A DNA stretch of 64,000 nucleotides from Gemmatimonadota bacterium (GTDB taxonomy: Bacteria; Gemmatimonadota; Gemmatimonadetes; Gemmatimonadales; GWC2-71-9): contig JBDHIK010000300.1 of the NCBI GenBank assembly GCA_039587475.1, positions 39,450 to 103,449 of the forward strand. The letters run 5' to 3'. The translations under genes were made by a program, and so were the position numbers. Of the stretch, positions 6,548-31,941 are shown in pieces. Positions within the stretch are counted from its first letter, which is position 1. Every line of letters begins with the position of its first letter. Under the pieces are notes generated by a model that saw only the letters and a program-made list of their open reading frames with translations, was not told where the DNA came from and did no database searches.

Positions 6548-8421
6548 GGTTGCGACTCCAGGGCCGCATCGATGGCGGCCTCGATCTCTGAGATCTTGAA
6601 CGGCTGTCCGGTCACCTTGGTCAAGGGCTCAGCGGGGACCAGGAAGGTGCTGCGCAGCATCGTCACGAGTTGCCCGTTGTTCATTTCCGGGACCAGGATT
6701 CGTTCGAAATTCCCCAGCAGGGTGCCCAGGTTGGCCGGGAACGGGTTGAGGTAGCGCAGATGGACGTGCGAGACCGCCTGCCCCTTGGCGCGGGCACGTT
6801 CTACTCCCTTGTTGATCGGCCCAAAGGTAGAGCCCCAGCCCACGACGGCCAGACGGCCGGTGTCCTCACCCAGCGCCACGGCCTGGGGCGGAACGTCGTC
6901 GGCGATGCCAGCGATCTTGGCGGCGCGGACGTCGGTCATGGTCTGGTGGTTGTCCGGATCGTAGGAGATGTGACCGGTGCCGTCCTGCTTCTCGATGCCG
7001 CCGATCCGATGCATGAGCCCCGGGGTCCCGGGCACCGCCCAGGGGCGAGCCAGCGTCACCGGATCTCGCCGGAATGGCTCAAAGCCCTCCGGGTCGGTGT
7101 GGAACCGGACCGGCCAAGTCTCCAGGCCGTCGAGGTCCGGGAGAAGCCATGGCTCGGCGGCATTGGCCAGGTAGCCGTCGGAGAGCAGGATGACCGGCGT
7201 CATGTACTTGGTGGCCAGCCGGACCGCCTCACGGCCGACCTCGAAGCAGTCCGTCGACGTCGCTGCGGCAAGGACCGCCACTGGCGTGTCTCCGTTCCGA
7301 CCGTACACGGCCTGGAACAGGTCCGACTGCTCGGTCTTGGTCGGCAGGCCGGTCGAAGGACCGGCCCGTTGCATGTTGAGGATGATCAACGGGAGTTCGG
7401 CGCTCACGGCCAGGCCGATGGCTTCGGTCTTGAGCGCGATGCCGGGTCCCGAGCTCGAGGTGACCCCGAGCGCACCGCCGTACGACGCCCCGATGGCAGA
7501 ACACACCGCCGCGATTTCGTCTTCCGCCTGGAACGTGATCACGCCGAGGTCCCGCATGGTGGCCAGAGAATGCAGCACCGGCGACGCCGGCGTAATCGGG
7601 TACGATCCGAACACCAGTCGCGGAATACCGGCGGACCGAAGGCCCGACACCAGGCCCCAGACGAGTGCCTCCGTGCCGCTGATGGTCCGGTACTCACCGG
7701 GAGGGAGGTCCGCGTCCGCGACCCGGTACCCGGTCAGGTTGCCGGACAGCTCCGCCGTTTCCCCGTACGCATGTCCGGCATTGATCGCTGCGATGTTGGC
7801 CTGCGCCAGGGTCTCGCGGCTGGCGAATTTCTTGGCGAGCCAGGACGTCGTGGCAGTGCGATCGCGGTCGTACATCCACAACATCAGTCCCAGGGCCCAC
7901 ATGTTGCGACAGCGGAGAGCCTCCTTCTTGCTCAACCCGAACGACTCAACCGCGTTCATGGTCAGCTGGGTGACGTCGAGCCGGATCACCTGATAGGGCG
8001 CCAGGGTGTTGTCTTCGAGCGGGTTGGCGTCGTAGCCGGCCTTGGCGAGGTTTCGGTCGCCGAAGCTGCCGCTGTCGGCCACGATAATCCCACCCAGACG
8101 CAGGTTCCCCAGATTCACCTTGAGCGCCGCAGGGTTCATGGCGACGAGCACGTCGATTTCGTCTCCGGCGGTCTTGACGTCCACCGAGCCGAAGTGGATC
8201 TGAAAAGCGGAAACTCCGAAGGTGGTACCGACCGGCGCCCGAATTTCTGCGGGGTAGTCGGGAAACGTGGTCAGGTCGAGGCCGGCCAGGGCCGTCTCCA
8301 GGGTGAACTGGGAGCCGGTCAACTGCATGCCGTCCCCGGAATCGCCCGCAAACCGGACGACGACGGCCTCGCGAACCTCGCGGGTCCCGGTACGGTCGTG
8401 CGTGGGTGCCGTGGTGCTCAT
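6544..8421 (-). CDS. korA: 2-oxoglutarate:ferredoxin oxidoreductase alpha subunit
   Basis: 625 aa; fused pyruvate-ferredoxin-oxidoreductase domains typical of two-subunit KorAB. Confidence 0.9.
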   Translation of the reverse strand: MSTTAPTHDRTGTREVREAVVVRFAGDSGDGMQLTGSQFTLETALAGLDLTTFPDYPAEIRAPVGTTFGVSAFQIHFGSVDVKTAGDEIDVLVAMNPAALKVNLGNLRLGGIIVADSGSFGDRNLAKAGYDANPLEDNTLAPYQVIRLDVTQLTMNAVESFGLSKKEALRCRNMWALGLMLWMYDRDRTATTSWLAKKFASRETLAQANIAAINAGHAYGETAELSGNLTGYRVADADLPPGEYRTISGTEALVWGLVSGLRSAGIPRLVFGSYPITPASPVLHSLATMRDLGVITFQAEDEIAAVCSAIGASYGGALGVTSSSGPGIALKTEAIGLAVSAELPLIILNMQRAGPSTGLPTKTEQSDLFQAVYGRNGDTPVAVLAAATSTDCFEVGREAVRLATKYMTPVILLSDGYLANAAEPWLLPDLDGLETWPVRFHTDPEGFEPFRRDPVTLARPWAVPGTPGLMHRIGGIEKQDGTGHISYDPDNHQTMTDVRAAKIAGIADDVPPQAVALGEDTGRLAVVGWGSTFGPINKGVERARAKGQAVSHVHLRYLNPFPANLGTLLGNFERILVPEMNNGQLVTMLRSTFLVPAEPLTKVTGQPFKISEIEAAIDAALESQP

Positions 8422-21291: not shown

Positions 21292-21780
21292 ATGAGCACC
21301 ATCACGCTGACGACATCACACGGCGACATCCTCATCGAATTGCATGCCAACGAGGCCCCGGTCACGGTGGAGAACTTCCTGGCCTACGTCGACGCGGGTC
21401 ACTTCGACGGCACCATCTTCCATCGGGTCATCCCCGGCTTCATGGTCCAGGGTGGCGGGTTCGAGGCCAACATGAACCAGAAGGCGACGCGCGACCCCAT
21501 CAAGAACGAGGCGGACAACGGGCTCAAGAACAAGCGAGGAACGTTGTCGATGGCCCGGACATCGGACGTCAACAGTGCCACCAGCCAGTTCTTCATCAAC
21601 CTCACGGACAACGTGTTCCTGGATCATGGATCCAGGGACTTCGGCTATGCCGTGTTCGCCAGTGTGGTGGACGGGATGGACGTGGTGGACGCCATCGCGG
21701 GCGTCGCCACGGGGAACCACGGTGGGCATTCAGACGTCCCGGTCGAACCGGTGAGAATCGAGAAGGCCGTCAGGGCCTGA
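21292..21780 (+). CDS. ppiB: peptidyl-prolyl cis-trans isomerase, cyclophilin type
   Basis: ATG at 21292; [14 protein letters not shown]...GTLSMAR...SQFFIN cyclophilin signatures; the 130 codons upstream in ORF 20902..21780 overlap the nitroreductase gene in another frame. Confidence 0.9.
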
Positions 21781-23284
21781 GGTCGGTCTCGCCGAATACC
21801 TGCTGCATGATGCGTCTGGCCTGGGGGGGCATCCCGGTGATTTCCACCTCCAGGCCCGCCAGCCGAGCCTCGTTGCTTACCGTCTTCATCGCCAACGCGC
21901 CGGTATAATCGATTCGTCCCAGGCTCGACATGTCGAGGAGCAGCCTGCTGGCGTTTGGGTGGGCCGCCAGTTGGTTCAGAAGCGCCTCTTCCAGGCCGGG
22001 CGCGGAGGCGAAGAACAGGACCCCCATCGGCTCCAGGCGAAGGGTCCCATTCTCCGCGCTGGAGCGGACATCGACGTGCAGCTCGCGCCATACGTGAACC
22101 ATGGTGGCGGCGCCGATCCCCAGAATCACCGCATACTCCACGTGGGGCGCCAGCCACAGGGTGGCGATGGCCGTGGTCCACGCGACGAAAGCCTGCGGCC
22201 GTGATTTCGCCACCAGGCGAACCATGCGCGGGATGGCGATCAGCTGAAGGACCGCGGCGATGACGATGGCCCCGAGGATGGCGCGGGGTAGCGGGGCCAG
22301 GATGCCGGCGAACGGAAGAAACAGCAGCAACGTCAGGCCGGTGATTGCTCCGGCCCACTGAGAACGCGCGCCCGCCAGCCGGCTCACCGATGTCCGGGAG
22401 AACGATCCGCCAACCGGAAAGCCACCCGACAACCCCGAGGCCAGGTTGGCGACCCCCTGTGAGACGAACTCCCGGCTGGGATTCCAACGCTCGCGATCCT
22501 GGGCTGCAAAGGTCCGTGCGATCGCTGCCGGTTCGGCGAAGCCGACCAGCGCGATGATGGCCGCCGGGATGAGGAGGCCGCCGACGGCGGTCCAGGGAAC
22601 GTCGAGCGAGATCGGCGGCAGGCCCGCGGGCAAGCTGCCGACCACCGTGCCGCCGTACCCGGTGATCACGCTGTATCCCATGCCAAGGAGTACCGCCACG
22701 AGCACGCCGGGAAACAGACGGTGCAGCCGCCGGCCTCCCAGAATGGCCAGGACCGTGAACGCCGCCAGCGCGACGGCCGTCGGCTCCCACTCCCCCGGGT
22801 GGGCCAGCGCCCAGACGGCTCGACCGAGGAGCGTCCCGTCCGGCGGTTGGGCGCCGAGCGCGGTGGGGAGTTGCGAGGAGATGATGAGAATCGCGGCGGC
22901 GGTGGTGAAGCCGACGAGTACCGGTTCCGACATGAGGTACGACAGCCAGCCCGCCTTCATGAAGCCCAGGGCCACCCGGATGACTCCGACCAGTATGGCC
23001 AACAGGGCGGCCAGGGCGACATACTCGGAACTGAGCGGGGCGGCCATCGTTCCCAGGGCCCCGAAGGTCAGCAAACTGGTAATGGCGACCGGACCTGTTT
23101 GCAGGTACCGGGAGGAGGCGACGGCCGCGGCGATCAGGGCAGGAAGGGCAGCAGCATACAGCCCGTGCTGGGCCGGCATGCCCGCCAGGTCGGCATAGGC
23201 CACCGCCTGGGGAATCAGGACGGCGGCGACGCTCAGGCCTGCGACGAGGTCCCCGGCTGTGATGCGCACCCACGGTCTCCGCAT
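21770..23284 (-). CDS. SulP family inorganic anion transporter with C-terminal STAS domain
   Basis: 504 aa; N-terminal SulP signature ...[31 protein letters not shown]...; C-terminal STAS (...[20 protein letters not shown]...). Confidence 0.9.
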
Positions 23285-23388: not shown

Positions 23389-24726
23389 CTAGATCTGCCC
23401 CCGCGTGACGTAGGAGAACTGGGGCTGGATCGAATCCTCGTGCATCGTGTTGGTGACACTGCTGCCCGGAACTGGCCCGGATGGACCGTAGATGGGTCCG
23501 GATCCGCTGTTCTCGAACACGTGGTAGTACCCGACGGTGATCTCGAGATGCCGGGTCGGACGGATCCCCACGCCGAAGGTGGCGTGGTGCTGGACCACGG
23601 CCGGCGCCGGCACGTTGATCATGGACCATTCATCGGGAATCGGGTTCTGGGAGTAGTTGTAGCCGCCGTACAGCGCGAACAGGGACGAGGCATCGAACTT
23701 GAGTCCCGTGGCGATGGAGTAGATGTTCTGCCACGCGAAGCCCGAGACGGATCCGTCAGCATTGAAGGGGCTCGATCCCTGCAGTTCGAAGCCGGGGGTA
23801 CTCTCGTAGAAGTAGTACTTGAAGTCCCCGGTGAGGAGCAGTGACGGAAGAGCCTGCACGCCGATGCCGGCTCCGGCGATGGCAGGGGCGTTCAACTTGA
23901 ACTTGATGGTCCGCGGTTCGCCGAAGTTGGCCAGGTTGGGATTGGCGTGCGTGGAGTTCCATTCGAAGGAGCTGAACCACTGCTCGCTCGCGTAGGAAGC
24001 GCCCAGGGCGATCATGTCGTTGACGTTGTAGAGCAATCCGAGCTGGAAGCCATACCCGAAGGCGCCGTCCGCCGCGCCGGCCTGTGGGAAGTAGGCGGTG
24101 CCACTCCCGGAGTCGAAGTCCGGTGCCGCGACAGGAGCCGGGATGATGGCGAGCTGTGCCCAGTCGATATTGACTGCGGCGCCCAGCCACAGTTTCTCCG
24201 TCGCCTCCCAGGCCACCGACGGCGTCACCTTGAGCAGCGAGTAGTTGCTGTAGACCTGCCCGAAGCCGTTGGGTTGCGGAAACAGAATGGGGTTGGTGCC
24301 GTTGGGTGGATTCTGCTCGGCTGGGTAGTCAACGCCGAAGCCGCCGATCCCCAGGCCGCCCAATCCGAGCACGACGCGTTCGCTCGACAACTTGTAGGTG
24401 GCGCCGAAGGCCGGAATCGGGACCCAGTCACTCACGCTGGTCGTGGAGCCACTGAACGGGCCGGCGCTGCTGGCCACGCTGCGGTCGGCCTTGAAGGCTT
24501 CCATGCTGAATTCCATGCGCGTCCCGTCGAAGGCCATCAGGCCAGCGGGATTCAGGGCAAACGTCCCCAGCAGACTGGCGGGTGCGGCAATGCCCGCGCC
24601 GCCCATCGCGGCGTTGATGGCTCCCACGCCGTGCAGGAAGTGGCCATCCGTGGCCTCGGCCGTGGGCGCGCTCGCCAGCAGCAGCAGGCCGACGAGGCCC
24701 ATGCCTGACAAATGACGACGGATCAT
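23389..24726 (-). CDS. putative outer-membrane beta-barrel transport protein (FadL/TodX/OMPP1-like)
   Basis: Signal peptide MIRRHLSGMGLVGLLLLASAPTAEA; Gly/aromatic-rich alternating beta-strand pattern, N-terminal GVGAINAAMGGAGIA reminiscent of the FadL family; family assignment tentative. Confidence 0.5.
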   Translation of the reverse strand: MIRRHLSGMGLVGLLLLASAPTAEATDGHFLHGVGAINAAMGGAGIAAPASLLGTFALNPAGLMAFDGTRMEFSMEAFKADRSVASSAGPFSGSTTSVSDWVPIPAFGATYKLSSERVVLGLGGLGIGGFGVDYPAEQNPPNGTNPILFPQPNGFGQVYSNYSLLKVTPSVAWEATEKLWLGAAVNIDWAQLAIIPAPVAAPDFDSGSGTAYFPQAGAADGAFGYGFQLGLLYNVNDMIALGASYASEQWFSSFEWNSTHANPNLANFGEPRTIKFKLNAPAIAGAGIGVQALPSLLLTGDFKYYFYESTPGFELQGSSPFNADGSVSGFAWQNIYSIATGLKFDASSLFALYGGYNYSQNPIPDEWSMINVPAPAVVQHHATFGVGIRPTRHLEITVGYYHVFENSGSGPIYGPSGPVPGSSVTNTMHEDSIQPQFSYVTRGQI

Positions 24727-24769
24727 GTTTCCTCCTTGGATTGTATCCATGCGGTGGCCTGGGCCACGT

Positions 24770-25324
24770 TTAGTACAAGCTTTCCTCGACCTTGTCCCGT
24801 ACCTCGTTTTCGATGGACCCCGGCATCCGCATGTTGGCGGCGAATTTCATCTTGCCGGCGTCTTCGAAGTACATCTTCATGCGGAACATGCTGTCGACCA
24901 TGTAGATGGTGATCTCCTCTCCCGTGCGCGTCAGAAGAATCGCGAAGGGGAAGGCTGCGGCGTGGTCGAGACCGGGGCACGTCAGATCGGAGCGCGAGTC
25001 GTCGTTGCCCGCCCCCACGATGGCAAAGGCGCGGCTCTCGATCGGCGCGCCGGTGATCCCGATGAGGGCGACGTTGCGATCTGCGTAGTCGAGCAGGAAG
25101 ACAGGCCGCGTCTCCCACTTGCGATCTCCGCCCTTGGCTGTGAGGGCTTCATAGAGGGCGGTGGCCACCTCCAGCAGGCCGTTGTCGCCTTGAAGCTTCA
25201 CCGAGGCGATCTTCTCGATCTTGTCTTCGAACGGACCACCGGCCACGACACCCATCGTCTTGCTGATGAGACCCCGATCACGCATCTGGCCGTACTGGCG
25301 GTTGGCGAGATGATCCTTGAACAC
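24770..25324 (-). CDS. hypothetical protein (cytoplasmic, no signal peptide)
   Basis: 184-aa ORF with coding-like composition and GC3 bias; no recognisable motif. Confidence 0.45.
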   Translation of the reverse strand: MFKDHLANRQYGQMRDRGLISKTMGVVAGGPFEDKIEKIASVKLQGDNGLLEVATALYEALTAKGGDRKWETRPVFLLDYADRNVALIGITGAPIESRAFAIVGAGNDDSRSDLTCPGLDHAAAFPFAILLTRTGEEITIYMVDSMFRMKMYFEDAGKMKFAANMRMPGSIENEVRDKVEESLY

Positions 25325-25497
25325 CCCTCCGCGGCGTATGAGCGTTCGATGAAGGCCGTTGGAGAGGCCTTCAGAGGGCTGTCACGGCGCCACAATCCGC
25401 GCTATCATGACGGGGAGGACAGACGCACGAGCCCGACACGAATTGGGCAACCAGTTTCGGGGGAACGCGCATGTGCGATCGGGATCCGGGTATACGG

Positions 25498-26541
25498 ATG
25501 GTTCTGGCGACTGCGGTCGCGCTCATGGCTGCGGTGACGTTTGCCGCGCCAACCGTTGCCGCGGCCCAGGGTCAGGCAGGCGCTCACCAGTGGCGATTCC
25601 AATCCCGGGCCCACGTCGACCTGTGGTTCCATGGGCTGGCCGTCGTCGGCTACGAGGGGTTTGGTCTCCTGCCGCTCTACGACCCGGGGTACGCCGATGC
25701 CGTGCGCTCCCTGAAGGAGACCCGCGGCGTCGCACCAACCCCGCTGGACGTCGCCGCTCCCCGGCTCCTGGAGGCGTTCGACCGGGACAGTCTTTTCGAA
25801 GTGCTACACTTCGTCCCTCTCTACTTCGAACATGGGACCGTCGAAAGCGTCCTTGGCGCACTTGACGCCGTGGCCCTGGGGCAGGAGCCTCAGGCGCTCG
25901 GCGCGGAGATCGTCGTGGCCGTGATCACGGGAGATGCACGCCGGCAGGTGTTGGGAGAATTCGTGGCGGCCCTACGTGCCGAGTGGAGCCTGTTCTTCGA
26001 GGCCGTGTGGCAGGAGCAGACGGATGCCCGTCAGGTGCGACTCGAGGAGGCGCAACGGTTCTGGGGCGCTGTGCTGGAGCCGTCGCTGGCACCGTTCCTT
26101 GCGCGACGTGGGCTGGGTGGTGGCGCAGTGTACGCATCCGCCGCTCTCGGTGCGGAAGGCCGGGTCTTCGCCGGTGCGCCGGGCAATCAACTGGACAATC
26201 GGGCGGCGGGAGCCCTTCCGCCGCCTCCGGTGAGTGACGATGTCATGGCGTTCGCGCTGGTTCGGGAGGTGTGCTTTCCGCTCGTGAGCCAGGTGGTGGC
26301 TCGCTCCCGCGCCGGCCACTGGGATCGCGTCGTGGCGGAACGGATGAGCAGCATCGGCGCGGTGCGTTGCGGCGCCGCCTTGCTGGATCGCCATGTCCCC
26401 GACCAGGCCACGCCGTATCGCATGGCGTTCCTGCGGGCCGCGGATGTACCGGAGGCCTCGCCCGAGGATTTTGCTGCGGTCTTCCCGTTGGACCCGAGTG
26501 TCGAGCAGGGAATCGAAGACGCGCTCGATCTCGATGCCTGA
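25498..26541 (+). CDS. hypothetical secreted protein
   Basis: Start at MVLATAVALMAAVTFAAPTVAAAQ signal peptide within ORF 25471..26541; no recognisable domain. Confidence 0.5.
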   Translation: MVLATAVALMAAVTFAAPTVAAAQGQAGAHQWRFQSRAHVDLWFHGLAVVGYEGFGLLPLYDPGYADAVRSLKETRGVAPTPLDVAAPRLLEAFDRDSLFEVLHFVPLYFEHGTVESVLGALDAVALGQEPQALGAEIVVAVITGDARRQVLGEFVAALRAEWSLFFEAVWQEQTDARQVRLEEAQRFWGAVLEPSLAPFLARRGLGGGAVYASAALGAEGRVFAGAPGNQLDNRAAGALPPPPVSDDVMAFALVREVCFPLVSQVVARSRAGHWDRVVAERMSSIGAVRCGAALLDRHVPDQATPYRMAFLRAADVPEASPEDFAAVFPLDPSVEQGIEDALDLDA

Positions 26542-26621
26542 CGCGGGCGGCCGTGCCGGAAGGCCGGGTGCGGCCCCGGTGAACTCGAGCGCCGTGCTTT
26601 GTGAGGAGGGTGCATAACACC

Positions 26622-28148
26622 GTGACGGAGTCCACTGCCTCTACCGTCGCCCAATGGGCCAAGGCCATCGACCACACGCGGTGTATCGGGTGTCACGCAT
26701 GCAGCACCGCCTGCAAGTCCGAGAACGACGTCCCGCTCTCCGTGAACCGTACCTATGTGAAGTACGTCGATGTCGGCGCCTTTCCCCAGGCGCGGCGGGC
26801 CTTCCAGGTCACTCGCTGCAATCAATGCGCCGACCCTCCCTGTGTGGCGGCCTGTCCCACCGCGGCGATGTATCAGCGGGACGACGGGATCGTCGATTTT
26901 GACAAGGCGGCCTGTATTGGATGCAAGGCCTGCATCGCCGCGTGCCCCTACGACGCCATCTTCATCAATCCGGACGACCATTCCGCCGAGAAGTGCAACT
27001 TCTGCGCTCATCGCATCGACATGGGATTGGAACCGGCTTGTGTCGTGGTGTGCCCGACCCAGGCCATCGTGGTCGGCGATCTCCAGGATCCCACGGCACG
27101 GGTTACCCAGTTGGCCCAACGTGAAGCCGTCGCCGTCCGCAGGCCTGAAAAGGAGACCCGGCCCAAGCTGTTCTACCTCGGCGCCCATCACGCCACGCTC
27201 GACCCCATCGCGGCCACCCGTCCGGACGGCGGTCTCTTCATGTGGAGTGAGCAGGCCACCGGACCGCATTCGGTCGTGTCCGGCCACCCGGGGGCGACGA
27301 CCAGTTCCGCTGCTGCGATCTTGTCTTACGACGTGCCGCACAAGGCGCCGTGGGACTGGCGTGTCAGTCTGTACACCTGGACCAAGGGCATCGCCGCGGG
27401 AGCCTACCTGGTCCCACTGCTGCTCGTGGTGCTCGGCGTGCTGGATCCTGCCAGTGCCTTGTGGCACTATGGCGCGCCGGTCATGGGCGGCGCCTTCCTG
27501 GGGTTGACCGGCCTGCTCCTCATCTGGGATCTGGAACACCCCGGCCGCTTCTGGTACATCTTCGCCCGCCCCCAGCTACGGAGTTGGCTCGTTCGTGGCG
27601 GATTCATCATCGGGGGCTACTCGGTTGTGCTTGCCGGGCACTTTGCCGCGGTCCTGGCAGGTGTCGATGGTGCGCTCATGTGGCTGGCCTTCGCAGGCGT
27701 GCCACTGGCAGCTCTCACCGCGATCTATACGGCCTACCTGTTTGCCCAGGCCAAGGGACGGGACTTGTGGCAGAACCCGCTCCTGCCCCCTCAGTTGCTG
27801 GTGCAGACCATCCTGGTCGGGGCCGCGGCGTTCTTGCCCCTGGCGGCTGTATGGGAACCATCCGTCGCGCCGGTGTTGCTCCGTCTCGTGGCCGGTGGCG
27901 CCAGTCTGTATCTCCTGCTGGTCCTGGGCGAGATGACGTTGGCTCACCCGACCGCGCATGCCAAGCTGGCCGCCTGGGAGATGACCTCCGGGCGTTACCG
28001 TCACTATTTCTGGGCCGGGATGGTGCTGCTTGCGGCGGCCGTCACCGCCCCCTGGCTCGGGATCACCGCCGCGCCACTGGCTCTGGCCGGGGTCCTGGCG
28101 CACGAGCACGCCTACGTGCAGGCGGGGCAAGCCGTCCCGCTGGCATGA
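26622..28148 (+). CDS. fusion protein: 4x[4Fe-4S] ferredoxin subunit (PsrB/TtrB/SoeB-like) fused to NrfD/PsrC-type 8-TM quinone-interacting membrane anchor
   Basis: Four Cys clusters (CIGCHACSTAC, CNQCADPPCVAACP, CIGCKACIAACP, CNFC...CVVVCP); C-terminal ~265 aa with ~8 TM helices; SD GAGGAGGG at 26603-26610 then GTG 26622 (ORF-track start is 26601); no Tat/Sec signal. Confidence 0.85.
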   Translation: MTESTASTVAQWAKAIDHTRCIGCHACSTACKSENDVPLSVNRTYVKYVDVGAFPQARRAFQVTRCNQCADPPCVAACPTAAMYQRDDGIVDFDKAACIGCKACIAACPYDAIFINPDDHSAEKCNFCAHRIDMGLEPACVVVCPTQAIVVGDLQDPTARVTQLAQREAVAVRRPEKETRPKLFYLGAHHATLDPIAATRPDGGLFMWSEQATGPHSVVSGHPGATTSSAAAILSYDVPHKAPWDWRVSLYTWTKGIAAGAYLVPLLLVVLGVLDPASALWHYGAPVMGGAFLGLTGLLLIWDLEHPGRFWYIFARPQLRSWLVRGGFIIGGYSVVLAGHFAAVLAGVDGALMWLAFAGVPLAALTAIYTAYLFAQAKGRDLWQNPLLPPQLLVQTILVGAAAFLPLAAVWEPSVAPVLLRLVAGGASLYLLLVLGEMTLAHPTAHAKLAAWEMTSGRYRHYFWAGMVLLAAAVTAPWLGITAAPLALAGVLAHEHAYVQAGQAVPLA

Positions 28149-28158
28149 GGAAACGACC

Positions 28159-31080
28159 ATGACGTCGAACGAACTGAACGAGCGGGTCACCGCTGCCCGG
28201 GACCAGGTAGAACGACGAGGGGAGACGTTCTACCCGGGTCCCAGCCGGATCCACCTCGCCGCGTTCCCGCCAAAGGAGCGCTGGGATGATTGGGTCGAGC
28301 TGGACTCGAAGGCATGGCCCGAGGCCAGCGAGCGGCGTTATACCCTGATCCCCACGACCTGCTTCAACTGCGAGTCCGCGTGCGGCCTGCTGGCGTACGT
28401 AGACCGCGACACGCTCGGGGTTCGGAAGTTCGAGGGGAATCCGGAGCATCCCGGGTCCCGGGGGCGCAATTGTGCCAAGGGACCGGCGACCCTGAACCAG
28501 ATTACCGATCCCGACCGTATCCTGGCGCCGCTCAAGCGCGCCGGGGCTCGCGGGGAAGGCCGGTGGGTCGAAGTGGGATGGGATGAAGCCCTGGACGACA
28601 TCGCGGGCCGCATCCGGAAGGCCATCCAGGAGAAGCGTCACAACGAGATCATGTATCACGTGGGGCGCCCTGGCGAGGACGGCTACACCGAACGCATCAT
28701 GGCGGCCTGGGGTGTGGACGGGCACAACTCGCACACCAACGTGTGTTCCTCCAACGCAAGAGCCGGCTACCAGTACTGGAGTGGTATCGACCGTCCCAGT
28801 CCGGATTTCGCCAACGCCCGGGTGATCCTGTTGGTGTCGGCGCACCTCGAGACCGGCCACTACTTCAACCCCCATGCCCAGCGCATCATGGAGGGGAAAC
28901 AGGACGGCGCCAAACTGGTGGTGTTCGATACCCGGCTGTCCAACACCGCCACCCACGCCGACCACTGGGTATCGCCCCATCCCGGGTCGGAGGCCGCGGT
29001 CTTTCTTGCCATCGCCAACGACCTGATTCAGCACGACCGCTACGACCGGGATTTCGTCCGTCGCTGGTGGAACTGGTCCGAGTACCTCGAGGCGGAATAC
29101 CCGGACCGGGCGGCGACGTTCGAGACGTTCGAGGAGGTTCTCAAGGAACTCTACGCCGATTACACCTTCGCGTTCGCGGCGCAGGAGTCCGGCGTGGACG
29201 AAGAGACGCTGAGAGACATCTCCCGACTGGTCGCGTCCGCGGGGACCCGGCTGGCCACGCATAACTGGCGCAGTGCCGCGGCCGGCAACGAAGGTGGATG
29301 GCAGGTCAGCCGCACGCTCTTTCTGCTGAATGCGTTGCTGGGAGCCATCGCCACCGAGGGCGGCACCACTCCCAACGCCTGGAACAAGTTCGTTCCCAAG
29401 CCCATTCACCTGCCGCCACACCCCAATGTCTGGAATCCGTTGACTTGGCCGGGAGAGTATCCACTGGCCATGAACGAGTTGTCCTTCCTGCTGCCGCATT
29501 TTCTGAAGGAGGGTCGCGGCCGACTGGATGTCTATTTCACACGCGTCTACAACCCGGTCTGGACCAATCCGGATGGGTTTTCGTGGATCGAGGTTCTGTC
29601 GGACGAGTCCCTCATCGGGATGCACGTCGCACTGACGCCCACCTGGAACGAGTCGGCCTACTTCGCCGACTACGTCCTTCCCATGGGGCACAGTTCCGAG
29701 CGGCACGACCTGACCTCCTACGAGACGGCCAACGGCCAGTGGATCGGCTTTCGCCAGCCGGTCCTGCGTGCCATGCGTGAGCGGCTCGGACAGCCCGTGT
29801 CGGATACCCGCGAAACCAACCCGGGCCAGGTCTGGGAGGAAAACGAGTTCTGGATCGACCTCACCTGGCGCATCGACCCCGACGGGTCATTGGGAATCCG
29901 CCAGTATGTGGAATCGAGATCCGCACCCGGAACGAAACTCGGCGTCGACGAATACTATGGCTATGCCTTCGAGCACTCGGTCCCGGGGCTGCCGGAGCGA
30001 GCCCAGGCCGAAGGCCTGACACCCCTCGAGTACATGCGGCGCTACGGTGCGTTCAGTGTCACGGCCAACGTGGATCCACCATACGAACGCGCGGTCCCCA
30101 CCGAGGAACTGGAGGACCCCGCAGAGTCAGCCCATGGGAGGGTCTTCACCCGGGCTCACAAGCCGCCCAATCCCAACATTGCCCCGCAGGCCGCGCCAGA
30201 GGGAGATGCCGAGGGCCGGCGCCCGGTCGGCGTCAATGTGGACGGGACGGTCCTGCGCGGCTTCCCCACTCCCAGCGGACGGCTGGAGTTCTACTCTACC
30301 ACGCTCGCCCAATGGGGCTGGCCCGAGTTTGCGCTTCCGACGTACATCAAGAGCCATGTCCACCCCGACCGGTTGGCCGACGACCAGGTCGTCCTGATTT
30401 CGACGTTCCGCCTGCCGGTGCACATCCACACCCGGAGTGCCAACGCCAAGTGGCTCACGGAAATCGCCCACACCAATCCCCTGTGGCTGCACCCGGACGA
30501 CGCGGGACCGCTCGGTGTCGGGACGGGCGATCTGATGCGTGTCGAGACGGAGATCGGCCATTTCGTCGTCAAGGCCTGGGTGACGGACGGCATCCGCCCC
30601 GGGGTGGTGGCCTGCAGCCATCACATGGGCCGCTGGAAACTCTCGGCGGAAGCCCATGGGACCATCACCGCCACGGCCGACCTGAATCATCAGGGGCACG
30701 ATTGGCGCCTGCGCCGCTCCAGCGGATCCACCAGGCCCGGCGCCGGAAGCGCAGAGGCCGCCCGGATCTGGTGGACCGACGTCGGTGTCCATCAAAACCT
30801 GACGTTCCCCGTGCATCCCGACCCGGTGACCGGACAACACTGTTGGCACCAGGCGGTGCGTGTTCGCAGGGCCCTTCCCAGCGATTGCCACGGCGACGTC
30901 TCGGTCGATAGCGCCAAGGCCGGGGCCGTTTACCGTGCCTGGCTGCAGAGGACCCGGTCGGCGCAAGAGCACTCTCCGGACGGGACCCGGAGACCGTTCT
31001 GGCTCATCCGCCCGCTCAAGCCTCCCAAGGAGGTGTTCCGGCTACCGGGGACCCCGGCTACCCGGGCAGGCTCGGAATAG
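28159..31080 (+). CDS. molybdopterin (bis-MGD) oxidoreductase catalytic subunit, DMSO-reductase superfamily (Psr/Ttr/Soe-like), no Tat signal
   Basis: ATG 28159 after GAGGAA; N-terminal FeS motif CFNCESACGLLAYVD...x26...CAKG; MopB core; C-terminal molybdopterin-dinucleotide-binding domain (...GDLMRVETEIGHFVVKAWVTDGIRPGVVACSHHMG); N-terminus MTSNELNERVTAARDQVERRGETFYPG lacks an RRxFLK Tat motif; extra ~150 aa C-terminal tail. Confidence 0.9.
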   Translation: MTSNELNERVTAARDQVERRGETFYPGPSRIHLAAFPPKERWDDWVELDSKAWPEASERRYTLIPTTCFNCESACGLLAYVDRDTLGVRKFEGNPEHPGSRGRNCAKGPATLNQITDPDRILAPLKRAGARGEGRWVEVGWDEALDDIAGRIRKAIQEKRHNEIMYHVGRPGEDGYTERIMAAWGVDGHNSHTNVCSSNARAGYQYWSGIDRPSPDFANARVILLVSAHLETGHYFNPHAQRIMEGKQDGAKLVVFDTRLSNTATHADHWVSPHPGSEAAVFLAIANDLIQHDRYDRDFVRRWWNWSEYLEAEYPDRAATFETFEEVLKELYADYTFAFAAQESGVDEETLRDISRLVASAGTRLATHNWRSAAAGNEGGWQVSRTLFLLNALLGAIATEGGTTPNAWNKFVPKPIHLPPHPNVWNPLTWPGEYPLAMNELSFLLPHFLKEGRGRLDVYFTRVYNPVWTNPDGFSWIEVLSDESLIGMHVALTPTWNESAYFADYVLPMGHSSERHDLTSYETANGQWIGFRQPVLRAMRERLGQPVSDTRETNPGQVWEENEFWIDLTWRIDPDGSLGIRQYVESRSAPGTKLGVDEYYGYAFEHSVPGLPERAQAEGLTPLEYMRRYGAFSVTANVDPPYERAVPTEELEDPAESAHGRVFTRAHKPPNPNIAPQAAPEGDAEGRRPVGVNVDGTVLRGFPTPSGRLEFYSTTLAQWGWPEFALPTYIKSHVHPDRLADDQVVLISTFRLPVHIHTRSANAKWLTEIAHTNPLWLHPDDAGPLGVGTGDLMRVETEIGHFVVKAWVTDGIRPGVVACSHHMGRWKLSAEAHGTITATADLNHQGHDWRLRRSSGSTRPGAGSAEAARIWWTDVGVHQNLTFPVHPDPVTGQHCWHQAVRVRRALPSDCHGDVSVDSAKAGAVYRAWLQRTRSAQEHSPDGTRRPFWLIRPLKPPKEVFRLPGTPATRAGSE

Positions 31081-31083
31081 TCG

Positions 31084-31941
31084 ATGGAGTTGTTCAGGGC
31101 CCTGGGCGCCCTGGCCGAGCGGCCTGATGCCGCGACGACCAGGCTGGCGGAAATCCTCGGCCTCGATCGGGCGCCGACGGCGGAGGAACACACGGCCCTG
31201 TTCCACCTGGAACTGTCCCCGTATGCCTCGGTCTATCTCAATCCCGAAGGCATGCTTGGTGGGGAAGCGCGCGACCGCGTGGCCGGCTTCTGGCGCGCGG
31301 TGGGCCAGGATCCGCCGGGGGAGACGGATCATGTCGCGGTCCTCATGGCCACCTATGCCAGCCTGGCGGACCTGGAGCAGGCAGAGCAGCAGGAGCGCCA
31401 ACAGGCCGCCTTCAGCCGCATGCGATCCGCGTTTCTGTGGGAACACCTCCTCAGTTGGCTTCCGCCGTTTCTCGATGCCGTTCAGGCCGTCGGCCCCGCA
31501 CCGTACCGCCAATGGGGCCGGCTGGTGGATGAGGCCCTCGAGACCGAGGCCCGTCGCACCACGCCTCCGGATAGTCTCTCCATGCACCTGAAACAGCACC
31601 TGCCTCTCGCCTCGTCTGATGAGGATACCGACGCGTTGCTGGCCGGTCTTCTGGCTCCGGTTCGGAGCGGTCTCGTGCTGACGGGCTCGGATCTGGTTCG
31701 GGCCGCGCGGGACACCGGGCTGGCTCGCCGGGCCGGCGAGCGCCGGTTCGTCCTGCGAGCCTTCCTGGAGCAGGATCCGTCGCGTGTCTGGCCCTGGTTG
31801 GCGGAGGAGGCGAACCGGTGGGCCATCCGGCACGAGGCTCGGCGGCCCTGGTTGGCCTCGATCGCAGCGGAGTGGGCCGCCCGCGCCCGCGCCACCGCCC
31901 GGTTGTTGAGCAGCCTCAGCCCATCTGGCGCCGGCCGCTGA
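31084..31941 (+). CDS. TorD/DmsD/NarJ-family molybdoenzyme maturation chaperone
   Basis: ...HLELSPYASVYLNPEGMLGGEA... and GETDHVAVLMATYASLADLE resemble the TorD-family E(P)xDH region; directly follows the catalytic subunit gene (3-nt gap). Confidence 0.65.
   Translation: MELFRALGALAERPDAATTRLAEILGLDRAPTAEEHTALFHLELSPYASVYLNPEGMLGGEARDRVAGFWRAVGQDPPGETDHVAVLMATYASLADLEQAEQQERQQAAFSRMRSAFLWEHLLSWLPPFLDAVQAVGPAPYRQWGRLVDEALETEARRTTPPDSLSMHLKQHLPLASSDEDTDALLAGLLAPVRSGLVLTGSDLVRAARDTGLARRAGERRFVLRAFLEQDPSRVWPWLAEEANRWAIRHEARRPWLASIAAEWAARARATARLLSSLSPSGAGR

What the first reader, a model, noticed from the sequence alone, without database searches (positions are those of the whole stretch)
26622..28148. 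Single polypeptide fusing the four-cluster ferredoxin (B) subunit to the NrfD-type membrane anchor (C)
In Psr, Phs, Ttr, Nrf, Soe and Qrc-type complexes the FeS subunit and NrfD-like anchor are separate proteins. Here ~250 aa with four complete Cys clusters is followed, in one continuous ORF with no stop or frameshift, by ~265 aa with ~8 TM helices. A signal-less N-terminal FeS domain and an even TM number imply both termini are cytoplasmic, consistent with the whole complex facing the cytoplasm.
Basis: seen in the sequence. Interest (0 to 1): 0.6.

Follow-up and report, generated by a model that had tools for sequence, protein, structure and literature searches.

The report
Fused iron-sulfur/anchor subunit, cytoplasm-facing molybdoenzyme
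One gene really does join the four-cluster ferredoxin and the quinone-binding membrane anchor of a polysulfide-reductase-like molybdenum enzyme that faces the cell interior, but this fused, inward-facing design is widespread, was already noted in green sulfur bacteria and marine microbes, and most likely serves to oxidise sulfite to sulfate.

Summary
ORF 26622-28148 (+) encodes, in one frame, a PsrB-like domain with 16 Cys in four canonical [4Fe-4S] groups, a conserved ~50-residue connector and an 8-helix NrfD/PsrC-type domain. It is followed at 10 nt by a Cys-ligated Mo-bisPGD catalytic subunit and then by a NarJ/TorD-type chaperone. It is not an artefact: 78 of 80 species-level loci have the same in-frame fusion, and the two exceptions are single-base lesions. 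At least 594 species genomes carry a relative, in about ten bacterial phyla and in haloarchaea. Cytoplasmic orientation is well supported. K+R is 11 versus 0 across the membrane here and 11.0 versus 0.5 over 130 homologues. No Tat signal was found on BC (0/130) or A (0/68), and a Tat-bearing Azoarcus relative served as positive control. The novelty claim fails. A psrBC fusion, psrBCA order and a signal-less catalytic subunit were described for green sulfur bacteria (PSRLC3) and Marine Group A, with sulfite oxidation proposed. New here are the breadth and a frequent linkage to persulfide dioxygenase, rhodanese, DsrE, TusA, TauE and SulP genes. That linkage supports, but does not prove, a quinone-reducing cytoplasmic sulfite dehydrogenase. 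No member has been characterised biochemically.

The parts
26604..26609 (+). Shine-Dalgarno sequence AGGAGG, 12 nt upstream of GTG 26622
   Evidence: Read directly in the sequence. It argues for 26622 rather than 26601 as the start codon.
26622..28148 (+). Fused BC gene (psrBC-type): four-cluster ferredoxin + connector + NrfD/PsrC-type anchor. 508 aa from GTG 26622; the longest ORF starts at 26601 (515 aa).
   Evidence: AlphaFold model pLDDT 84.8, pTM 0.86.
26652..27185 (+). FeS (B) domain, residues 18-195 of the 515-aa ORF; 16 Cys in four [4Fe-4S]-type groups
   Evidence: phmmer to Thermus PsrB 2vpw_B, E 3.5e-51. Foldseek TM 0.80, rmsd 2.9 A, 48% identity. Cys pattern.
27186..27341 (+). Conserved connector, residues 196-247 (T-L-D-P..A-A..R..G..F-x-W ... 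Y-D..H..P-W); not a loose linker
   Evidence: Many invariant or nearly invariant columns in 44- and 130-sequence alignments. Model pLDDT here is only 57-76. Both natural lesions (L010, L040) fall in it.
27342..28133 (+). NrfD/PsrC-type membrane domain, residues 248-511. Eight TM helices (256-279, 289-309, 329-352, 357-381, 394-417, 422-445, 468-486, 489-509), with N- and C-termini on the cytoplasmic side.
   Evidence: Pfam PF03916, E 1.4e-16. Foldseek 2vpw_C TM 0.71 and ActC 8k9e_C/6btm_C. K+R 11 vs 0. No sequence-level match in the PDB.
28159..31080 (+). Catalytic (A) subunit, 973 aa: Mo-bisPGD enzyme with FS0 motif CxxCxxxC...C and a conserved Cys at the position aligned with the Cys of PsrA/ArrA. 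No Tat signal. ATG lies 10 nt after the BC stop.
   Evidence: Pfam Molybdop_Fe4S4, Molybdopterin, Molydop_binding. Best PDB matches PsrA 2vpw_A and ArrA 6cz7_A. No Tat motif. Conserved downstream of BC in the loci long enough to show it.
31084..31941 (+). NarJ/TorD-family maturation chaperone (D), 285 aa; ATG 3 nt after the A stop
   Evidence: Pfam PF02613, E 8.9e-16. Conserved after A in many loci at 31-63% identity.
21770..23284 (-). SulP/STAS anion (sulfate-type) permease, 504 aa. A recurrent neighbour of the system, possibly the sulfate outlet (inferred).
   Evidence: Pfam Sulfate_transp E 7.8e-76 + STAS. A homologous permease lies within 7 kb in 13/80 related loci.

Best explanation
The ORF is the fused electron-transfer/anchor subunit (PsrBC-type) of a three-module, Psr-like complex iron-sulfur molybdoenzyme that faces the cytoplasm. 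The catalytic subunit A (Mo-bisPGD, Cys ligand, FS0 cluster) and the N-terminal four-cluster domain stay in the cytoplasm. TM1 of the NrfD domain acts as an N-in signal anchor, so the FeS domain sits on the cytoplasmic face of its own eight-helix bundle. Electrons pass substrate -> Mo -> FS0 -> four [4Fe-4S] clusters -> a quinone site in the TM1-4 bundle near the cytoplasmic surface. The most likely reaction is sulfite + H2O -> sulfate + 2H+ + 2e-, with quinone as acceptor. This is the same job as SoeABC, and the job proposed for PSRLC3 of green sulfur bacteria. It would dispose of sulfite made in the cytoplasm by persulfide dioxygenase, sHdr or desulfonation, with sulfate leaving through SulP/TauE-type carriers. 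The fusion probably arose from adjacent or overlapping B and C genes in a B-C-A operon. It is tolerated because an inward-facing complex needs no Tat export of a folded FeS protein. Shown: domain content, fusion, conservation, orientation signals, operon, gene neighbourhoods. Inferred: substrate, direction of electron flow, quinone site, reason for the fusion.
For: Architecture. Fusion is real and conserved. Orientation: positive-inside bias; no Tat on BC or on A (0/68); the Azoarcus relative has RRTFLK on A and no bias. An unfused but equally inward-facing relative has B and C overlapping by 4 nt, in the same B-C-A order (L082/L083). Sulfur context: PDO-type MBL genes in 27/80 loci, PDO-rhodanese fusions 19/80, SulP 13/80, DsrE-like 9-10/80, TusA 9/80; at least one such gene in 33/80 loci and in 20/40 with full flanks. 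R. jostii RHA1 pRHL3 has trxA, MBL, ArsR, MBL, DsrE-like and TusA next to BC, A and Mrp/NBP35. In T. roseum a CsoR-family regulator sits directly upstream. L081 has GcvH-like lipoate-binding proteins, a lipoate ligase and an Hdr-like CCG protein upstream, and TauE between BC and A. L082 has ComA. Literature: a cytoplasmic psrBC-psrA complex proposed to oxidise sulfite (PMC3906813; PMC6338057).
Against: No member of this family has been assayed, so the substrate is inferred from neighbourhoods only. About half of the loci with full flanks, and this window itself (only SulP, 3.3 kb away on the other strand), show no sulfur genes within 7 kb. The closest characterised or solved relatives of A are reductases (PsrA, PhsA, ArrA). 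Gene order (BC-A) and the fusion differ from soeABC, and orthology to bona fide SoeA or to green-sulfur-bacterial PSRLC3 could not be tested because no reference sequence was reachable.
Confidence: 0.6

Rival explanations
1. The fusion is an artefact: a missed stop codon or a frameshift in this assembly has joined two genes.
For: Two related loci do show a break in the connector (L010 frameshift, L040 TGA). Gene callers often mis-start these genes (P0001, P0268).
Against: 78/80 independent species-level assemblies have the same in-frame fusion. All 240 listed homologues from two searches carry both domains. Finished records of cultured strains have it: T. roseum 510 aa, R. jostii RHA1 506 aa, Natrinema 607 aa. 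The connector is itself conserved. The two breaks are single-base lesions, and the same frame continues after them.
Confidence: 0.01
2. It is a conventional outward-facing polysulfide/thiosulfate/tetrathionate reductase, with the FeS domain and A exported to the periplasm.
For: Best family and structure matches are the periplasmic enzymes PsrABC, PhsA, TtrB and ArrAB. A TorD-family chaperone is present.
Against: No Tat or Sec signal on BC (0/130) or A (0/68), while the criterion detects the Azoarcus Tat signal. Strong K+R excess on the FeS side, 130/130. An N-terminal folded four-cluster domain followed by eight TM helices has no known export route (established knowledge of Tat/Sec; inference). 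NarJ-type chaperones also serve the cytoplasmic NarG (established knowledge).
Confidence: 0.03
3. It faces the cytoplasm but works as a quinol-oxidising reductase (persulfide/polysulfide, thiosulfate, tetrathionate or another oxyanion) rather than as a dehydrogenase.
For: A is closest to reductases with a Cys-ligated Mo. The neighbours DsrE, TusA and rhodanese handle sulfane sulfur, which could be delivered as a substrate.
Against: The hosts are largely aerobic heterotrophs or MAGs from oxic soils and sediments. Making sulfide next to sulfide-detoxifying PDO genes would be futile (inference). Quinol-driven polysulfide reduction is endergonic and in Psr depends on the membrane potential (PMC8076601), which an inward-facing site would not harness in the same way. 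Prior proposals for the fused cytoplasmic complex favour sulfite oxidation.
Confidence: 0.17
4. It is a cytoplasmic quinone-reducing dehydrogenase for a substrate other than sulfite (for example thiosulfate, an organosulfur compound, arsenite or something unrelated to sulfur).
For: Half of the loci, including this window, have no sulfur genes nearby. ArsR/SmtB- and CsoR-family regulators also sense metals and metalloids. Haloarchaeal and Pyrinomonadaceae contexts are uninformative.
Against: The enrichment of PDO-type genes (27/80 loci within 7 kb) is far above what a gene present once or twice per genome would give by chance (the expectation is my estimate). TauE, SulP, ComA and sHdr/LbpA-type neighbours all point at sulfite/sulfate. 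A is 63-83% identical across bacterial phyla, which suggests one conserved substrate.
Confidence: 0.19

Closest known systems
psrBC-psrA ('psrBCA') complexes of green sulfur bacteria (PSRLC3), Marine Group A, Marine Group II archaea, Haladaptatus and Caldilinea (Frigaard & Bryant 2008 and Gregersen et al. 2011 as cited in PMC3906813; PMC5473276; PMC6338057)
   Same: B and C fused in one gene. The B(C) gene lies upstream of A. No Tat signal on A, hence a cytoplasmic complex. Two structural genes. Spread across bacteria and archaea with lateral transfer. Proposed sulfite oxidation. My set contains haloarchaeal and Chloroflexota members with the same layout.
   Different: Direct sequence or phylogenetic placement with those references could not be done here. 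The hosts here are mostly aerobic heterotroph lineages (Gemmatimonadota, Acidobacteriota, Actinomycetota). The linked genes are PDO/rhodanese/DsrE/TusA rather than dsr. Still uncharacterised biochemically in every lineage.
SoeABC sulfite:quinone oxidoreductase (Allochromatium vinosum, Ruegeria pomeroyi, Aquifex aeolicus)
   Same: A CISM with A and B on the cytoplasmic (N) side and an NrfD-like anchor thought to be inverted relative to other family members (PMC8076601). Signal-less A of about 109 kDa (size of SoeA from memory). Likely the same physiological role.
   Different: SoeA, SoeB and SoeC are three separate proteins encoded in A-B-C order (PMC5114278); here the order is BC-A with a fusion. 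SoeC forms its own sequence cluster (PMC6303296). A study that looked for SoeABC found none in samples whose MAG names match loci carrying this system, which suggests that standard Soe searches do not pick it up. Orthology untested.
Thermus thermophilus polysulfide reductase PsrABC (PDB 2VPW-2VPZ)
   Same: Best structural and sequence match for all three modules. B: E 3.5e-51, TM 0.80. C: TM 0.71. A: E 2.6e-34. The Cys and FS0 motifs align.
   Different: Psr is periplasmic, Tat-exported, has three separate subunits and oxidises quinol. Here there is no signal, the charge bias across the membrane is the reverse of what a periplasmic B-docking side requires, and B and C are fused. The C halves share only ~20% identity.
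Unfused B-C-A-D relatives: Azoarcus sp. KH32C pAZKH (periplasmic, Tat) and L082/L083 groundwater contigs and Sulfurovum mangrovi (signal-less)
   Same: Same gene order B, C, A, (TorD). Homologous A (33-37% identity where measured) and an NrfD of the same subfamily.
   Different: B and C are separate genes; they overlap by 4 nt in L082/L083, and B's end overlaps C's reading frame in Sulfurovum. Azoarcus A carries a Tat signal and its C lacks the positive bias on the B side. These show that orientation and fusion are separable traits.
Alternative complex III ActB (fusion of a cofactor-less Mo-bisPGD-like module with the FeS module)
   Same: Another CISM-derived complex in which two modules are fused and dock on an NrfD-type subunit (PMC6303296). 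ActC is a top structural match of the membrane half.
   Different: The fusion is A-like+B, not B+C. It is periplasmic, has lost the molybdenum cofactor and contains haem subunits.

Membership tests
Complex iron-sulfur molybdoenzyme (CISM), Psr/Phs/Arr-type | Catalytic subunit with Mo-bisPGD domains and an N-terminal FS0 [4Fe-4S] motif | tested here: met
   Pfam Molybdop_Fe4S4 + Molybdopterin + Molydop_binding. CxxCxxxC...C and a Cys aligned with the Cys of PsrA/ArrA.
Complex iron-sulfur molybdoenzyme (CISM), Psr/Phs/Arr-type | Four-cluster ferredoxin module (16 Cys in four groups) | tested here: met
Complex iron-sulfur molybdoenzyme (CISM), Psr/Phs/Arr-type | Haem-free NrfD/PsrC-type anchor made of two four-helix bundles (8 TM) | tested here: met
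   Pfam PF03916. Eight TM helices. Foldseek 2vpw_C TM 0.71.
psrBCA / PSRLC3-type cytoplasmic Psr-like complex | PsrB and PsrC encoded as one fused gene | tested here: met
psrBCA / PSRLC3-type cytoplasmic Psr-like complex | B(C) gene upstream of the A gene | tested here: met
   BC stop 28148, A start 28159. A follows BC on the same strand in every locus long enough to show it.
psrBCA / PSRLC3-type cytoplasmic Psr-like complex | No Tat signal on the catalytic subunit (cytoplasmic location) | tested here: met
   (0/68, with a positive control).
psrBCA / PSRLC3-type cytoplasmic Psr-like complex | Catalytic subunit clusters phylogenetically with the green-sulfur-bacterial, Marine Group A and MG-II sequences | not testable with these tools
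SoeABC sulfite dehydrogenase | A and B on the cytoplasmic side, anchored by an inverted NrfD-like subunit | tested here: met
   Feature as described in PMC8076601.
SoeABC sulfite dehydrogenase | Three separate subunits encoded as soeA-soeB-soeC | tested here: not met
   Two structural genes in BC-A order. Soe order as in PMC5114278.
SoeABC sulfite dehydrogenase | Orthology of A to experimentally studied SoeA | not testable with these tools
   No SoeA sequence or model was available. No Soe model appeared among the NCBIfam hits.
SoeABC sulfite dehydrogenase | Sulfite:quinone oxidoreductase activity | not testable with these tools
   Needs biochemistry. Only neighbourhood evidence is available.
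Periplasmic PsrABC/PhsABC/TtrABC reductases | Twin-arginine signal on A and export of A and B to the periplasm | tested here: not met

The most novel reading that the evidence does not exclude
This fused, inward-facing BC-A(-D) enzyme is the main cytoplasmic sulfite dehydrogenase of aerobic heterotrophic sulfide/persulfide oxidisers (the SQR-PDO route) in soils and sediments, across roughly ten bacterial phyla and haloarchaea. On this reading it is systematically missed by surveys that search for soeABC, sorAB or SUOX, which would fill the reported gap in direct sulfite oxidation in such communities. A bolder add-on is that the very exergonic sulfite-to-quinone step drives proton movement through the NrfD half, with the covalent B-C link serving as the coupling element.
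Probability: 0.35. Interest if true: 0.6.

Novelty: new member of a known kind. Interest (0 to 1): 0.3.

Why it matters
The fusion as such is not news. It does, however, mark a very widespread enzyme family (at least 594 species genomes) that has never been characterised and carries only generic annotations such as '4Fe-4S dicluster domain-containing protein' or 'polysulfide reductase NrfD'. The reference review of NrfD-type subunits does not mention it. If the family is a sulfite:quinone oxidoreductase, it would link persulfide dioxygenase to the respiratory chain in many aerobic heterotrophs, and it would change sulfur-cycle gene inventories that currently report direct sulfite oxidation as rare. 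It is also a natural example of an inverted NrfD subunit covalently tied to its FeS partner, which is useful for testing ideas about quinone sites and proton paths in this family. Cultured and partly tractable hosts exist: Rhodococcus jostii RHA1 (plasmid pRHL3), Thermomicrobium roseum and Natrinema.

Tried and rejected
1. Stand-alone NrfD 'orthologues' from the representative search. Most proved to be truncated or mis-started fusions: P0278/P0391 and P0334/P0394, and P0268, whose true ORF is a 525-aa fusion. I dropped them as evidence for unfused close orthologues.
2. L010 and L040 as real two-gene forms. Rejected: both are single-base lesions.
3. First AlphaFold run with 44 close homologues. 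The FeS half had pLDDT ~30 and was unusable for domain packing. It was replaced by a 130-sequence alignment.
4. First Tat test on A. Its hydrophobicity threshold failed on the Azoarcus positive control, so I discarded it and replaced it.
5. First neighbour clustering without a codon-position filter. It was swamped by spurious high-GC ORFs and was redone.
6. Obtaining a bona fide SoeA or green-sulfur-bacterial PSRLC3 sequence. The plasmid tblastn gave no soeABC locus (Thioclava H21 is unrelated). Cluster names gave no Chlorobi. Gregersen et al. 2011 is not held in the library.
7. Sulfur genes elsewhere in this window. tblastn with PDO, DsrE, TusA, TauE, rhodanese and CsoR seeds found nothing credible.
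8. Literature searches for an NrfD/Soe fusion found nothing until the PsrB/PsrC query.
Full report
**1. Observation**

The window contains a continuous + strand ORF, 26601..28148 (515 aa). Numbering below follows this 515-aa ORF.
- Pfam finds a 4Fe-4S dicluster domain (Fer4_11, residues 68-160) and NrfD (PF03916, 248-511). NCBIfam TtrB/NrfC/DsrO models cover residues 8-205.
- The N-terminal half has 16 Cys in the four canonical groups. The C-terminal half has eight hydrophobic spans.
- The FeS half aligns end to end with Thermus PsrB (2vpw_B, E 3.5e-51).
- The catalytic gene starts 10 nt after the stop (28159..31080, 973 aa; Molybdop_Fe4S4, Molybdopterin, Molydop_binding). A NarJ/TorD-family chaperone gene follows 3 nt later (31084..31941).

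**2. Not an artefact**

- All 120 best hits to the protein are 494-537 aa, carry both Pfam domains and are only 68-75% identical. They come from Gemmatimonadota, Armatimonadota and Acidobacteriota.
- A second search seeded with the Thermomicrobium roseum protein again returned fused proteins, nearly all 504-535 aa and all carrying both domains, from Thermomicrobiales, Chloroflexota and Methylomirabilota.
- In 78 of the 80 loci kept, the four-cluster domain is in the same frame as NrfD.
- The two exceptions are a +1 frameshift just after 'FMWSEQG' in a long-read MAG, and TGA replacing the conserved Trp codon of 'FMWSEQ'. The same frame continues after both.
- Several apparently stand-alone NrfD proteins in the databases are truncated or mis-started fusions. 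This includes the JGI call for this very ORF (P0001, which starts at V48).
- Finished records of cultured organisms have the fusion: T. roseum (510 aa), Rhodococcus jostii RHA1 plasmid pRHL3 (506 aa) and the haloarchaeon Natrinema halophilum (607 aa).

**3. Structure**

- With 130 homologues AlphaFold gives mean pLDDT 84.8 and pTM 0.86.
- The FeS half superposes on PsrB (TM 0.80, rmsd 2.9 A, 48% identity). The membrane half superposes on PsrC (TM 0.71, 20% identity) and on ActC of alternative complex III.
- The membrane half is not detectable by sequence against the PDB. It belongs to a small NrfD subfamily: 1,186 of 1.84 billion cluster representatives match at E<=1e-3.
- The ~50-residue connector has many invariant positions, so it is a structured part of the protein rather than a spacer. 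Its model confidence is only moderate.
- I could not access coordinates, so I did not test whether the B-C packing equals that in 2VPZ.

**4. Orientation**

- In the window protein, the loops on the FeS side hold 11 K+R and the opposite loops none.
- Over 130 fused proteins the means are 11.0 and 0.5, and the bias holds in 130/130. A median of 11 residues precedes the first Cys group, and none has a Tat-like motif.
- None of 68 catalytic subunits has an RR motif followed by an uncharged stretch anywhere between the upstream in-frame stop and FS0. The same criterion detects the Tat signal of the Azoarcus relative. An earlier, stricter criterion failed that control and was discarded.
- The Azoarcus system is unfused B-C-A-TorD, with A 33% identical. 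It has 'ITRRTFLK...' on A, and its NrfD lacks the bias (2 vs 3).
- An unfused groundwater relative (L082/L083) has no signals and the same 10-vs-1 bias. Its B and C genes overlap by 4 nt. Sulfurovum mangrovi has a similar signal-less unfused set.
- So the inward orientation characterises a clade with B-C-A order, and the fusion arose within it.
- Inference: once no folded FeS protein has to cross the membrane by Tat, joining B to the Sec/YidC-inserted anchor costs nothing, and it guarantees 1:1 assembly.

**5. Function**

- A keeps the FS0 motif. Its Cys in 'HTNVCSS' aligns with the Cys of PsrA and ArrA, which I recall as the Mo ligand position (from memory). It therefore looks like a competent Mo enzyme of the Psr/Phs/Arr group.
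- A is 63-83% identical across bacterial phyla and ~52% identical to haloarchaeal copies. It often sits on plasmids or megaplasmids, which fits lateral transfer.
- Neighbour census of the 80 loci: PDO-type metallo-beta-lactamase genes in 27, PDO with two rhodanese domains in 19, SulP/STAS permease in 13, DsrE-like in 9-10, TusA in 9, ArsR-type regulators in 6. At least one sulfur-related gene occurs in 33/80 loci and in 20/40 with full flanks.
- In RHA1 the pair lies directly after DsrE-like and TusA genes, next to MBL-fold genes, ArsR regulators and thioredoxin.
- In T. roseum a CsoR-family regulator precedes it.
- In L081 a TauE sulfite-exporter-family gene lies between BC and A, and GcvH-like lipoate-binding proteins, a lipoate ligase and an Hdr-like CCG protein lie upstream.
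- In L082 a ComA gene is adjacent.
- These genes make or move sulfite, sulfate or sulfane sulfur. The best reading is a quinone-reducing cytoplasmic sulfite dehydrogenase.
- This window itself offers only the SulP permease at 21770-23284.
- In RHA1 and Natrinema an Mrp/NBP35 ATPase takes the position of the TorD-like gene after A.

**6. Comparison with the literature**

- The reference review of NrfD-like subunits lists only separate B and C subunits and never mentions a fusion. It treats SoeABC as the one complex thought to face the N side, with an inverted SoeC (PMC8076601).
- The fusion is nevertheless on record. Wright et al. 2014 (PMC3906813) describe a psrBC gene fusion, psrBCA order and signal-less, presumably cytoplasmic PsrA. 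They report these in Marine Group A, green sulfur bacteria (citing Frigaard & Bryant 2008), Marine Group II archaea, Haladaptatus and Caldilinea. They also note the proposal that the green-sulfur-bacterial complex oxidises sulfite (Gregersen et al. 2011).
- PSRLC3 is called 'an alternative sulfite-oxidizing system' (PMC6338057) and is encoded by '2 genes' (PMC5473276).
- The window's system meets every architectural criterion of that kind. Phylogenetic membership could not be tested because no reference sequences were reachable.
- It is not a canonical soeABC: it has two genes, in BC-A order.
[quoted passage not shown] MAGs whose names carry that study's sample codes (BHB10-2, BHB10-38, M8-12, M8-62) are among my loci (L003, L025, L031, L065). 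Two of them (L025, L031) have PDO, DsrE and TusA beside the system. This suggests an annotation blind spot, although I matched names only, not accessions.

**7. Verdict**

- The interpretation (true fusion, cytoplasm-facing complex) is supported and strengthened.
- The claim that such fusions are unknown is wrong.
- What is added here: the very broad distribution, evidence that orientation and fusion are separable, a validated orientation test, a confident model of the fused protein, and a gene-neighbourhood case for sulfite oxidation downstream of persulfide dioxygenase.
- The substrate and the direction of electron flow remain inferred.
- Rating: new member of a known kind; modest interest.

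Noticed in passing
window 26601-26744 (and L081 5275-6852): Public gene calls mis-start this gene family. The JGI protein for this ORF (P0001, 468 aa) begins at V48 and loses the first Cys group. P0268 (283 aa, 'NrfD') is really a 525-aa fusion. Such calls create false stand-alone NrfD entries in protein databases.
   Followed up: yes
L010 ~6880-6900 and L040 ~6895-6900: The only two 'split' loci both break within a few codons of the conserved 'FMWSEQ' motif of the connector. Many metagenomic gene calls also start at that Met ('MWSEQ...'). I did not resolve whether this is coincidence, a gene-caller habit or a real internal start.
   Followed up: partly
L002, L004, L009, L012, L015, L018, L036 (between BC and A): In Pyrinomonadaceae/Acidobacteriota loci, 1-3 kb are inserted between BC and A. 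A similar gap occurs in several further loci of these groups (L011, L019, L021, L032, L051, L059). The insert holds a ~179-aa DUF1905 + YdeI/OmdA-domain gene in the seven loci named at left (the same gene family also occurs in L026). Its role is unknown.
   Followed up: partly
L084 9799-10968; L088 8945-10105; L069: In R. jostii RHA1 and Natrinema an Mrp/NBP35-family ATPase directly follows A, where this window has the TorD/NarJ-like gene. The Mycobacterium locus L069 matches both. This may be an alternative or extra maturation factor.
   Followed up: no
window 25471-26541 (+): A 356-aa ORF directly upstream of BC has no Pfam match. A 30%-identical ORF lies downstream of the chaperone gene in L001. 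It did not pass my GC3 filter, so its coding status is uncertain.
   Followed up: partly
L003, L025, L031, L065 vs PMC12345210: MAG names match the sample codes of a Bohai Sea study that reports SoeABC as not detected and direct sulfite oxidisers as scarce, yet these MAGs carry the BC-A system (two of them next to PDO/DsrE/TusA). This looks like an annotation blind spot. Only names, not accessions, were matched.
   Followed up: partly
(L084, L085, L088 and other plasmid hits): The catalytic subunit is unusually conserved across phyla and domains: 63-83% among bacteria and ~52% to haloarchaea. It often sits on plasmids or megaplasmids, which points to frequent lateral transfer.
   Followed up: partly
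window 23389-24750 (-) and 24770-25324 (-): Between the SulP permease and the BC operon lie a FadL/OmpP1/TodX-family outer-membrane channel (Pfam Toluene_X) and a 184-aa protein with no Pfam match. No link to the system was seen in other loci.
   Followed up: no
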